Source of the DNA: a virus
UHGV virus genome: UHGV-0171993
Strand: one strand, 5' to 3'
DNA: 33,990 nucleotides
The stretch's first letter is position 1, and each line of letters opens with the position of its first letter. The translations under genes and the position numbers were made by a program. A model generated the notes under the pieces. It was not told where the DNA came from and searched no databases. It saw nothing but the letters and a program-made list of their open reading frames with translations. Shown here piece by piece: positions 11,292 through 12,390 of this stretch.

Positions 11292-11702
11292 ATGTTAAAA
11301 AAGATTGCGGCATTACAGCAGCCCTTCACACTGAGGGGCTGCGATAATGTGAGAAATAAAAAACCGGTCACAGGGAGCAGCTACACAGAACCGGCTGGCA
11401 AAGACCGCCAATACCACCCATGCTTCAGTAAAACATACATATGACATTAGCTGGTATTGATGTAAATGCAATGTTGTGCATCGACGAAAATAAAAAGCCG
11501 GCAGGGGAAATCCATTGAAGATTTGCCGGTGGCAAAAGAGGGCCATGTTTTTAACCTTAGTCGCAGAGTTACGGAGTGCAACTACGAATGCTGCCGGTAT
11601 ATGGCTGAATGGCGTTTCAATGATGTACGTCATCTTATCTGTAAATGTTAATGATAAACGCTCTCATTTGTGCGGGTCCTTCCGGTGGGGTGGCCTGCCA
11701 CG

Positions 11703-11714
11703 GGGCGGGAGCGT
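11703..11714. other. Candidate cosN cohesive-end site (GGGCGGGAGCGT)
   Basis: cacg-GGGCGGGAGCGT-cgcgg closely resembles lambda cos (ttacg-GGGCGGCGACCT-cgcgg, recalled from memory); followed by an AT-rich cosB-like region leading to the terminase small subunit. Confidence 0.45.
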
Positions 11715-11898
11715 CGCGGAAAAAGGCTAGTTTTTGCATTTTCATTCATCATCATCATCTTTTCAATGCATTGAATTTAAACGAATTTTATTTTTAGTAT
11801 GTTAATTTTGCGTGTTTTTTGGTCAACATATAACGCACTTTATAACGCTTTTTGAAAAGGTGTTCGCAAGATGCATGTTTAAAACGTCAGGAGGGGAT

Positions 11899-12390
11899 AT
11901 GGATCGTGAGTTGAAAAATCTGATGCTGAACATTAACCAACTGGCGGCAATAGCAGGTATATGTCGTCAGACTGCGGCGGCAAGACTGCAAAACATCCAG
12001 CCCGCCGGAGGACATGACAAGTTAAAGCTCTACCGGGTGGCAGATATTGTGTCGGCATTTCTGGCATTACCCCCGCCAGTTGCAGAAGGCGAAATGGATG
12101 CACATGAGCGCAAAGCCTGGTATCAGTCTGAGCGTGAGCGTCTTAAGTTTGAACAGGAAACCGCGCAACTTATTCCGGCAAGCGATGTCAGGCGGGAATT
12201 TGCCATCTGGGCAAAAGCAGTTGTGCAGGTGCTGGAAACATTACCGGATGTTCTGGAGCGTGACTGTGGTCTGCAGCCCACGGCTGTAAGTCGTGTTCAG
12301 TCCATTATTGATGATCTGCGTGATCAGATAGCCCTGCGGGTGACCGAAGCAGGCGCGGATGATGAGGAGGAATTACAGCAGGAGGAGTAA
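11899..12390 (+). CDS. Terminase small subunit (DNA-binding, Nu1-like role)
   Basis: AGGAGGGG RBS before ATG 11899; N-terminal HTH-like segment LMLNINQLAAIAGICRQTAAARL; stop overlaps the start of the large subunit. Confidence 0.7.
   Translation: MDRELKNLMLNINQLAAIAGICRQTAAARLQNIQPAGGHDKLKLYRVADIVSAFLALPPPVAEGEMDAHERKAWYQSERERLKFEQETAQLIPASDVRREFAIWAKAVVQVLETLPDVLERDCGLQPTAVSRVQSIIDDLRDQIALRVTEAGADDEEELQQEE

What the first reader, a model, noticed from the sequence alone, without database searches (positions are those of the whole stretch)
11690..11900. Candidate cos site (cosN-like GGGCGGGAGCGT) about 185 bp upstream of the terminase small subunit
cacg-GGGCGGGAGCGT-cgcgg resembles the lambda cohesive-end region (ttacg-GGGCGGCGACCT-cgcgg, recalled from memory), with conserved flanks and a variant 12-mer. 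It is followed by an AT-rich stretch with short direct repeats (catcatcatcatc, ttttattttt) where cosB and IHF sites would be expected. This would make the packaged genome begin here.
Basis: partly seen in the sequence, partly recalled or inferred. Interest (0 to 1): 0.45.

Follow-up and report, generated by a model that had tools for sequence, protein, structure and literature searches.

The report
Lambda-type cos site of a prophage
This is an ordinary lambda-style DNA-packaging (cos) site of a lambdoid prophage, the place where the phage's terminase cuts replicated DNA to make the 12-base sticky ends of the packaged genome; two published relatives' genome records begin at the identical sequence.

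Summary
GGGCGGGAGCGT lies at 11703-11714, flanked by cacg and cgcgg. It matches lambda's cohesive end at 8 of 12 positions. All four differences (positions 7, 8, 9, 11) fall in the right half, which the literature describes as free to vary.

The combined cosQ-cosN pattern occurs once in the window and in none of 100 shuffles.

Downstream lie an intact small terminase subunit (TerS, 11899-12390, a remote Nu1 homologue), a gpA-family large subunit (TerL), a lambda-family portal, and head and tail genes.

The phage records cdtI and Tritos begin exactly at this 12-mer and end at ...CTGCCACG. More than 200 viral and metagenome contigs carry the same core.

DNA from cosQ to bp 34 is shared between two TerS types. 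DNA from bp 35 to the TerS start differs with TerS type, as expected of cosB. Within it I map a likely R3-IHF-R2(inverted)-R1 layout.

No virion-end data exist for this 12-mer in what I could search. The verdict is an ordinary new member of a well-known kind, of low interest.

The parts
11674..11680 (+). cosQ-like heptamer GGGTCCT, the packaging-termination signal
   Evidence: It is identical to lambda GGGTCCT at 48473-48479. It is present in nearly all of the 80 loci that encode the same TerS, and sequence to its left is unrelated between loci. The spacing to the top-strand nick is 22 nt here, against 23 nt in lambda and Gifsy-1.
11701..11716 (+). cosN: the 12-base cohesive-end sequence GGGCGGGAGCGT (11703-11714) plus flanking CG dinucleotides. 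The predicted nicks are between 11702/11703 on the top strand and 11714/11715 on the bottom strand.
   Evidence: The cdtI and Tritos records begin at this G and end at ...CCACG. Variants among relatives differ only at positions 7-12. Eight of the 16 bp are rotationally symmetric, against 10 of 16 in lambda (counted by hand from the sequence).
11715..11736 (+). Invariant spacer CGCGGAAAAAGGCTAGTTTTTG, in the position of lambda's cosN-R3 spacer (I2 region)
   Evidence: It is identical in loci carrying either TerS type. The pattern used to collect those loci enforced bp 1-28, so only bp 29-34 were free to vary. A near-identical version occurs in more distant enterobacterial relatives that were found through their TerS protein, not through this pattern.
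11746..11759 (+). R3 candidate, a TerS binding site: TCATCATCATCATC, three overlapping copies of TC[AG]NCAT[CA].
   Evidence: It lies at bp 44-57 from the cohesive end, where lambda R3 is at bp 50-65 (PMC9026076). The same motif is at bp 45-58 in Rahnella, Enterobacter and Citrobacter relatives whose TerS is 56-60% identical. It co-varies with TerS subtype. Its function is inferred.
11764..11776 (-). I1 candidate, an IHF-site core: CAATGCATTGAAT, one mismatch from YAANNNNTTGATW. It lies inside the perfect palindrome TTCAATGCATTGAA (11762-11775).
   Evidence: A perfect consensus sits at bp 62 in 57 of 84 unique relatives with the window's TerS type, and at bp 64 in all 16 cdtI-type relatives. 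It is almost absent elsewhere in these cos regions. The match in the window alone is not significant.
11786..11795 (+). A/T tract TTTTATTTTT next to the IHF core, on its 5' side when read on the minus strand.
   Evidence: It is conserved in the alignment of relatives. A/T tracts 5' of the WATCAA core are a known feature of strong IHF sites (background knowledge). Its function is inferred.
11798..11805 (-). R2 candidate, inverted: TATGTTAA, whose reverse complement TTAACATA is one mismatch from the motif
   Evidence: Inverted motif copies lie at bp 96-98 in sub-lineages L024 and L028 and in the distant relatives. Its function is inferred.
11823..11830 (+). R1 candidate: TCAACATA
   Evidence: Direct motif copies lie at bp 121-122 in all lineages examined except L011. 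That lineage has the subtype's CAC form, TCATCAC, at the same place. Its function is inferred.
11829..11848 (+). Direct repeat TATAACGC (11829-11836 and 11841-11848) with a 12-bp period
   Evidence: It lies in the stretch that is extra in this sub-lineage. The cosN-to-ATG distance is 196 bp here and 186 bp in most relatives.
11862..11885 (+). Highly conserved block GTTCGCAAGATGCATGTTTAAAAC, just 5' of the TerS ribosome-binding site. Its role is unknown.
   Evidence: It is nearly invariant across all three sub-lineages of this TerS type, while the R-like elements vary. It has no Rfam match and no plus-strand sigma-70 match.
11899..12390 (+). TerS, the small terminase subunit (163 aa)
   Evidence: It matches Pfam DUF1441 at 5e-39 and phrog_141 'terminase small subunit' at 6e-72. 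It cross-hits phrog_57, lambda Nu1's own family, at 1.6e-9, and Nu1 cross-hits phrog_141 at 5.6e-8. hhalign against Nu1 plus Gifsy-1 TerS gives 79% probability and E 1.6e-5 over 136 columns, including the helix-turn-helix and wing.
12390..14492 (+). TerL, the large terminase subunit of the gpA family (700 aa)
   Evidence: It matches Pfam GpA_ATPase at 3e-72 and GpA_nuclease at 7e-85. It is 83% identical to the phage cdtI TerL.

Best explanation
Window 11674 to about 11898 is the complete cos site (cosQ-cosN-cosB) of a lambdoid prophage.

**Proposed mechanism.** After induction, late transcripts read through the lysis genes and cos into the TerS and TerL genes.
1. TerS binds through its N-terminal winged helix-turn-helix to the R-like elements of cosB. 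The best candidates are R3 (11746-11759), inverted R2 (11798-11805) and R1 (11823-11830).
2. IHF bends the AT-rich DNA at 11764-11795, which lies between R3 and R2.
3. This anchors the gpA-type TerL so that it nicks the top strand between 11702 and 11703 and the bottom strand between 11714 and 11715.
4. The result is 5'-protruding 12-base ends, GGGCGGGAGCGT.
5. Packaging proceeds rightward, with the terminase genes entering first.
6. Packaging ends at the next cos on the concatemer, where cosQ (11674-11680) is needed for the terminating cut.

The virion chromosome therefore starts at 11703 and ends at 11702/11714.

**Shown here:** the sequence elements, their conservation, their co-variation with TerS type, and the gene context.
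**Inferred from lambda biology:** the nick positions, the overhang polarity, and the binding of TerS and IHF.
For: 1. The cosQ and cosN elements are present with lambda-like spacing and are unique in the window, with 0 of 100 shuffles matching.
2. The four differences from lambda are all at positions 7-12. Gifsy-1 (GGGCGGCAGCGT) differs from the window at position 7 only. Feiss et al. report that the right half varies freely while cosQ, the left half and the flanking CG dinucleotides are conserved (PMC4669245).
3. Eight cosN variants were found among 103 unique related cos regions. All keep GGGCGG and vary only at positions 7-12, and the same holds in Rahnella.
4. The genome records of phage cdtI (AB285204) and of the plaque-forming phage Tritos (OV696610, linear) begin with GGGCGGGAGCGTCGCGGAAAAAGGCTAG and end with ...CTGCCACG (PMC9928086). 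The plaque-forming phage phi458 has the same TerS type and an identical cosQ-to-bp-34 sequence (PMC9701743).
5. The region behaves as modules. Sequence left of cosQ is unrelated between loci. Base pairs 1-34 are identical across two TerS types. Base pairs 35-180 are 80-85% identical within a TerS type and 23-32% identical between types. This is the lambda versus phage 21 pattern, in which cosN is shared and cosB is specific.
6. The IHF consensus sits at a fixed position in relatives. R-like motifs sit at fixed positions and orientations even in relatives with 56-60% TerS identity. They change in concert with the TerS helix-turn-helix and wing subtype.
7. TerS is a remote Nu1 homologue and TerL belongs to the gpA family. 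The portal is of the lambda family, and all head and tail ORFs are intact.
Against: - No experimental end determination for this 12-mer was found. No paper in the searchable library prints it as a cohesive end. The starts of the cdtI and Tritos records may have been set by analogy with lambda.
- No metagenome contig begins exactly at cosN.
- The IHF-like core in the window has one mismatch and is not significant on its own.
- Repeat pairs within a single cosB sequence are no more frequent than in shuffled sequence, so the R-site assignment rests on comparative evidence only.
- The window does not show whether the prophage can be induced, because the immunity and integration regions are not in view.
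Confidence: 0.88

Rival explanations
1. The site is a relic: an intact-looking cos in a prophage that can no longer be induced or packaged, so the site is never used.
For: The window covers only the late half of the prophage, from the nin region to the tail fibres. The repressor, integrase and replication genes are unseen. Many E. coli lambdoid prophages are defective (background knowledge). Related regions occur up to 7 times per genome.
Against: All late genes examined are full-length, from holin to side tail fibre. From cosQ to bp 34 the sequence is identical to that of the plaque-forming phages phi458 and Tritos. The TerS protein is 100% identical to one in an IMG/VR contig.
Confidence: 0.08
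2. It is a real cos, but the cut geometry differs from the prediction. The nicks could be offset, giving a shorter or longer overhang, or the polarity could differ.
For: No direct end sequencing of this variant was found. The central symmetric pair G6/C7 of lambda is lost here (G6/G7), and only 8 of 16 bp are symmetric. The cosQ-to-nick spacing is 1 bp shorter than in lambda.
Against: The flanking CG dinucleotides and the left half are invariant, exactly 12 bp apart, across all relatives. TerL is of the gpA family. Right-half changes in lambda do not measurably affect cos cleavage (PMC4669245).
Confidence: 0.03
3. It is a chance resemblance, or the phage packages by a headful (pac) mechanism.
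For: A 17-mer search allowing 3 mismatches gives at least one match in 12 of 100 shuffles.
Against: The composite cosQ+cosN pattern matched in 0 of 100 shuffles. The position upstream of TerS is conserved in hundreds of contigs. The gpA-family TerL is the family associated with 5' cohesive ends (PMC12315714 citing Casjens and Gilcrease).
Confidence: 0.01

Closest known systems
Bacteriophage lambda cos (cosQ-cosN-cosB; Nu1/gpA terminase)
   Same: - The cosQ heptamer is identical.
[quoted passage not shown]
- The order is lysis genes, cos, TerS, TerL.
- The TerS start lies about 190 bp from the end (bp 197 here, bp 191 in lambda).
- The likely cosB layout is R3-IHF-R2(inverted)-R1, with R3 at bp 44-57 (bp 50-65 in lambda).
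   Different: - The cohesive end differs at positions 7, 8, 9 and 11.
- The cosQ-to-nick spacing is 22 nt instead of 23.
- The R-element sequence is TC[AG]NCAT[CA], unrelated to lambda's CGTTTCC-type repeats.
- TerS is in Pfam DUF1441 rather than Phage_Nu1. BLASTP finds no similarity; only profile methods link them.
Salmonella phage Gifsy-1 cos
   Same: Its cosN, GGGCGGCAGCGT, differs from the window at position 7 only. It has the same cosQ. The Feiss laboratory lists it as a lambda-like cos with a complex cosB (PMC4669245, PMC9026076).
   Different: Gifsy-1 has a phage 21/Nu1-type TerS in Pfam Phage_Nu1, and its cosB is unrelated.
Phages cdtI (AB285204) and Tritos (OV696610, prophage 3 of E. 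coli LF82)
   Same: The cohesive-end sequence and bp 1-33 are identical in both phages (bp 34 differs in cdtI), and cosQ-to-cosN is identical in cdtI and near-identical in Tritos. Both records start at the 12-mer. The cdtI TerL is 83% identical to the window's.
   Different: The TerS N-terminal DNA-binding domain is different, with 40% identity overall. cosB is unrelated from about bp 35 onward. A different packaging-initiation specificity is therefore expected.
Phages mEp460 and phi458, and E. coli prophages annotated 'DUF1441 family protein'
   Same: They have the same TerS type (about 90% identical) and the same cos layout. phi458 is identical to the window from cosQ to bp 34. mEp460 has GGGCGGGAGCGG. 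Related regions occur in 2193 of 5426 complete E. coli genomes.
   Different: The window belongs to a minority sub-lineage. Its TerS carries ...AGICRQTAAARL..., its R elements are of the CAT type rather than the CAC type, and an extra 10 bp gives 196 bp instead of 186 bp from cosN to the ATG.
Phage N15 'simple' cos
   Same: It has a lambda-like cosQ and cosN, with variation in the right half (PMC4669245).
   Different: N15 has a single R3 and no IHF site, and its TerS starts at bp 89 (PMC9026076). The window has a long, AT-rich, multi-element cosB.

Membership tests
lambda-like cos site (as defined by Feiss et al., PMC4669245) | [quoted passage not shown] | tested here: met
   Eight of 12 positions are identical to lambda, and positions 1-6 are all identical. 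The left half is invariant in 103 unique related cos regions.
lambda-like cos site (as defined by Feiss et al., PMC4669245) | Conserved CG dinucleotides flanking both nick positions, with partial two-fold symmetry | tested here: met
   The sequence reads caCG|GGGCGGGAGCGT|CGcgg. Eight of 16 bp are symmetric, against 10 of 16 in lambda (hand count; the lambda figure agrees with PMC9026076).
lambda-like cos site (as defined by Feiss et al., PMC4669245) | The 7-bp cosQ lies about 20-25 bp upstream of the nick | tested here: met
   GGGTCCT is at 11674-11680, 22 nt from the nick. It is conserved while the DNA to its left is unrelated between loci.
lambda-like cos site (as defined by Feiss et al., PMC4669245) | cosB lies between cosN and the TerS gene, with TerS-binding R elements and, in complex cosBs, an IHF site between R3 and R2 | tested here: inconclusive
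   The comparative evidence is strong. The region co-segregates with TerS type. The IHF consensus is positionally fixed. The motif sits at fixed R3, inverted R2 and R1 positions in divergent relatives and co-varies with TerS subtype. Against this, within-sequence repeat statistics are not significant, and no binding data exist.
lambda-like cos site (as defined by Feiss et al., PMC4669245) | Cognate terminase: a Nu1-like TerS with an N-terminal winged helix-turn-helix, plus a gpA-family TerL with ATPase and endonuclease domains | tested here: met
   TerL matches GpA_ATPase and GpA_nuclease. TerS matches phrog_141, with reciprocal cross-hits to Nu1's phrog_57, and hhalign gives E 1.6e-5. The winged helix-turn-helix fold itself was not confirmed: the single-sequence AlphaFold2 model had a pLDDT of 56, and there was no PDB sequence hit.
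lambda-like cos site (as defined by Feiss et al., PMC4669245) | Virion DNA is non-permuted, with complementary 5' 12-base overhangs generated at this site | not testable with these tools
   The evidence is only indirect. The cdtI and Tritos records start at this site. The mEp460_4F5 assembly opens 5 bp to the left of it. No metagenome contig ends exactly there.

The most novel reading that the evidence does not exclude
The single cosQ-cosN-I2 core found here serves at least four distinct TerS/cosB initiation specificities in Escherichia prophages. These are three sub-lineages of the window's TerS type, whose R elements change in concert with the TerS helix-turn-helix and wing, plus the cdtI type.

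Termination in lambda-like phages needs only cosQ and cosN. Co-resident prophages (up to 7 related packaging regions per genome) could therefore terminate on each other's cos while initiating only on their own. That would make a natural, so far undescribed specificity series for DUF1441-type small terminases.
Probability: 0.3. Interest if true: 0.35.

Novelty: new member of a known kind. Interest (0 to 1): 0.12.

Why it matters
- **Annotation.** It fixes the virion-genome coordinates. The left end is at 11703, and the prophage map is a permutation of the virion map. It also identifies the packaging strategy as cos with a 5' 12-nt overhang, which is useful for annotation and for PhageTerm-type checks.
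- **Distribution.** This one cos core is very widespread. Related packaging regions occur in about 40% of complete E. coli genomes, and the identical core occurs in hundreds of gut-metagenome and viral contigs.
- **Packaging specificity.** The DUF1441-type TerS appears to use a lambda-like R3-IHF-R2-R1 cosB with its own recognition motif. If confirmed, that would extend the lambda/21/N15 packaging-specificity framework.

None of this is surprising to a specialist.

Tried and rejected
1. **Literature search for the 12-mer and its variants.** No phage paper in the library prints GGGCGGGAGCGT. The key survey, Vahanian et al. 2017 (Virology 509:140), and the cdtI paper (PNAS 2007) are not held.
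2. **Looking for assembled contigs that begin exactly at cosN, as a proxy for physical ends.** Among 119 metagenome contigs the closest ends lie 8, 20, 21 and 21 bp to the left. These look like assembly breaks at the edge of a repeat shared between phages, so the test is uninformative. My IMG/VR pattern began 2 bp upstream of cosN and would have missed contigs that start at cosN.
3. **Repeat statistics within a single cosB.** Pairs matching at 9 or more of 12 positions are no more frequent than in shuffled sequence (the first attempt timed out).
4. **IHF consensus in the window alone.** There were 24 matches against 27.6 expected. Only positional conservation in relatives is informative.
5. 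**Direct comparisons of TerS.** BLASTP of TerS against Nu1 found nothing, and so did phmmer against PDB sequences. The single-sequence AlphaFold2 model had a pLDDT of 56 and was not used for fold search.
6. **Other functions for the region.** There was no Rfam family and no plus-strand promoter in the cos region.
7. **Source organism.** An exact 49-mer of the window's cosB was absent from the GTDB representative genomes. The closest TerS there is 90% identical, in Escherichia. The best full-length match in complete E. coli genomes is 88% identical. The source strain remains unidentified.

Full report
**Observation.** The window reads gcGGGTCCTtccggtggggtggcctgccacg-GGGCGGGAGCGT-cgcggaaaaaggctagtttttg, with the 12-mer at 11703-11714. 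I read lambda from NC_001416 rather than from memory. The window and lambda share positions 1-6, 10 and 12 of the cohesive end, the CG dinucleotides on both sides, and the heptamer GGGTCCT. It is lambda's cosQ (48473-48479) and lies at 11674-11680 in the window. The 17-mer alone, allowing 3 mismatches, is only weakly above chance: 12 of 100 shuffles also gave a match. The composite cosQ-N(18-26)-CG-GGGCGG-N6-CG occurs once in the window and in none of 100 shuffles. GC content is 72% over cosQ-cosN and drops to 22% at 11750-11824, which confirms the AT-rich stretch.

**Context.** The window is the late half of a lambdoid prophage.
- Upstream of cos are nin-region genes, a DNA methyltransferase, two tRNA genes, a holin, an M15 endolysin, a possible spanin-region ORF and two small moron ORFs.
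- Downstream of cos are TerS (11899-12390), a gpA-family TerL (12390-14492), a head-tail adaptor, a lambda-family portal, a protease-capsid fusion, tail genes, J, Lom and a side tail fibre.
- All of these are full-length.

TerS falls in Pfam DUF1441 and phrog_141 ('terminase small subunit'). It cross-hits phrog_57, the family of lambda Nu1, at 1.6e-9, and Nu1 cross-hits phrog_141 at 5.6e-8. A local hhalign of a TerS alignment against Nu1 plus Gifsy-1 TerS gave 79% probability and E 1.6e-5 over 136 columns. It aligned the window's NINQLAAIAGICRQTAAARLQN..GGHDKLKLY with Nu1's helix-turn-helix and wing. BLASTP and a PDB sequence search found nothing, and a single-sequence AlphaFold2 model was too poor to use.

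**Relatives whose records begin here.** Phage cdtI (AB285204) and phage Tritos (OV696610, a linear record) both start with GGGCGGGAGCGTCGCGGAAAAAGGCTAGTTTTT and end with ...CTGCCACG. That is exactly the predicted top-strand nick. Tritos is prophage 3 of E. coli LF82 and forms plaques (PMC9928086). phi458 is a plaque-forming siphovirus with the window's TerS type, and it is identical to the window from cosQ to bp 34 (PMC9701743). mEp460 has GGGCGGGAGCGG. I found no statement that any of these ends were determined experimentally, and no paper in the library prints this 12-mer as a cohesive end. The record starts may have been set by analogy with lambda.

**Comparative evidence for cosN and cosQ.** All 80 IMG/VR loci encoding this TerS have a cosN-like sequence 185-196 bp upstream of the start codon, or a one-base variant of my search pattern. 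Nearly all also have GGGTCCT 29 bp before it. DNA to the left of cosQ is unrelated between loci, which marks a mosaic joint exactly at the edge of the functional site.
- Across 103 unique related cos regions there are eight cosN variants...GAGCGT, GAGCGG, GAGCAT, CAGCGG, TAGCGG, CGCGCT, CTGGCT and CGTGCT. All keep GGGCGG and vary only at positions 7-12. Rahnella adds CGGACT.
- Gifsy-1 is GGGCGGCAGCGT, one base from the window.
- This matches the rule reported by Feiss and colleagues. The right half of cosN varies freely because TerL is anchored by TerS at cosB, while cosQ, the left half and the flanking CG dinucleotides are conserved (PMC4669245).

**Evidence for cosB.** The exact core 30-mer is present in at least 120 IMG/VR contigs, and the 34-mer in at least 119 metagenome contigs. 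It is linked to two TerS types: the window type (MDRELKNL...) and the cdtI type (MELLMSNVSG...). Both are DUF1441, and they are 40% identical overall, with the similarity concentrated in the C-terminal part.
- Base pairs 1-34 are identical across the two types. The collecting pattern enforced bp 1-28, so only bp 29-34 are informative.
- Base pairs 35-180 are 80-85% identical within a type and 23-32% identical between types, which is about the random level.
- This is the lambda versus phage 21 situation: shared cosQ and cosN, with a type-specific cosB and TerS DNA-binding domain.

**Layout inside cosB.**
- A perfect IHF consensus (YAANNNNTTGATW on the plus strand, meaning the site reads on the minus strand) lies at bp 62 in 57 of 84 unique window-type regions. 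It lies at bp 64 in all 16 cdtI-type regions and almost nowhere else.
- The window has a one-mismatch version, CAATGCATTGAAT (11764-11776). On its own this is not significant. It is followed by the conserved TTTTATTTTT tract (11786-11795).
It lies at bp 96-104 inverted and at bp 121-128 direct.
- The same three positions and orientations hold in Rahnella, Enterobacter, Citrobacter, Kluyvera and Pseudocitrobacter prophages. Their TerS is only 56-60% identical and their cosN-to-ATG distance is 129 bp.
- Within Escherichia, three TerS sub-lineages differ in the helix-turn-helix and wing (GICRQTAAARL.., GVHRQTAAARL.., GLHRQTVVARL..). Their three R-like elements change together, between CAT and CAC forms and between TCAA and TCGA forms.
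- Repeat counts in any single sequence are not above the shuffled background. The assignment of R3 (11746-11759), I1, R2 (11798-11805) and R1 (11823-11830) is therefore a comparative inference, not a demonstration. It parallels lambda, where R3 is at bp 50-65, followed by I1, inverted R2 and R1 (PMC9026076).

**Mechanism (inferred from lambda).** TerS bound at the R elements across an IHF-induced bend positions TerL to nick between 11702/11703 on the top strand and 11714/11715 on the bottom strand. This gives 5' 12-base ends. Packaging runs rightward and terminates at the next cosQ-cosN.

**Rivals.** A relic site in a defective prophage cannot be excluded from sequence alone, but intact late genes and identity to the cos of plaque-forming phages argue against it. 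A different cut geometry is unlikely, given the invariant CG flanks 12 bp apart and the gpA-type TerL. Chance resemblance and headful packaging are effectively excluded.

**Comparison and novelty.** This is a member of the lambda-like cos family in the sense of Feiss et al. Its cosN is one base from Gifsy-1's and identical to that of cdtI and Tritos. Its cosB belongs to the mEp460/phi458 group and is a minority sub-lineage with 10 extra base pairs. Related packaging regions occur in 2193 of 5426 complete E. coli genomes, up to 7 per genome. The kind is textbook and the exact core is already at the start of deposited genomes. Only the R-motif and TerS-subtype co-variation may be undescribed, and I could not check the one paper most likely to cover it (Vahanian et al. 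2017). Interest is low.

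Noticed in passing
window 11762-11775: A perfect 14-bp palindrome, TTCAATGCATTGAA, sits on the IHF-like core. Relatives of another sub-lineage have a different dyad (ACTGTAATA-N6-TATTACAGT) centred on the same core. The symmetry is kept while the sequence is not. No explanation.
   Followed up: partly
window 11862-11885: A 24-bp block, GTTCGCAAGATGCATGTTTAAAAC, lies just before the TerS ribosome-binding site. It is nearly invariant across all three sub-lineages of this TerS type, although the R-like elements vary. It partly resembles TTCGCAAGATGTCGAA in the 129-bp-type relatives. It has no Rfam or plus-strand promoter match, and its role is unknown.
   Followed up: partly
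window 11829-11848: A direct repeat of TATAACGC with a 12-bp period lies in the extra roughly 10 bp that makes this sub-lineage's cosN-to-ATG distance 196 bp rather than 186 bp.
   Followed up: partly
window 11268-11288: A strong bidirectional terminator-like hairpin (AAAGGCCGC-TCT-GCGGCCTTT plus T runs) lies just after the small moron ORF 11033-11248 (phrog_4298), inside the late operon upstream of cos.
   Followed up: no
window 8663-8816: Two tRNA genes, Thr(TGT) and Gly(TCC), lie between the DNA methyltransferase and the lysis cassette.
   Followed up: no
window about 16151-18211: The head maturation protease and the major capsid protein are encoded as one fused ORF (phrog_133, phrog_4523), as described for Gifsy-2-like heads.
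   Followed up: no
window 11466-11651: A 61-aa cysteine-rich ORF ends 23 bp before cosQ. The DNA of this stretch (11500-11702) is 84% identical to the right end of phage cdtI. It has no Pfam or PHROG hit.
   Followed up: no
L215 (Rahnella inusitata) and L216 (Escherichia sp. ESNIH1), about 130-175 bp upstream of TerS: These relatives have GGTACTC where cosQ GGGTCCT is expected. L216 also has a left-half cosN variant (GGGGCGACGGAT). Both are exceptions to the reported invariance of cosQ and the left half.
   Followed up: no
L008 and L238 (LR595868, mEp460_4F5), record start and end: This linear assembly opens 5 bp to the left of cosN and lacks 3 bp (TCG) at the cosN right edge. It is probably an assembly artefact at the physical ends, and so a weak hint that virion DNA ends here.
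   Followed up: partly
E. coli complete genomes: Regions related to window 11500-12400 occur in 2193 of 5426 genomes, up to 7 per genome, and 5 places are on plasmids. The best full-length identity is only 88%, so the source strain or species of the window is not among them.
   Followed up: partly
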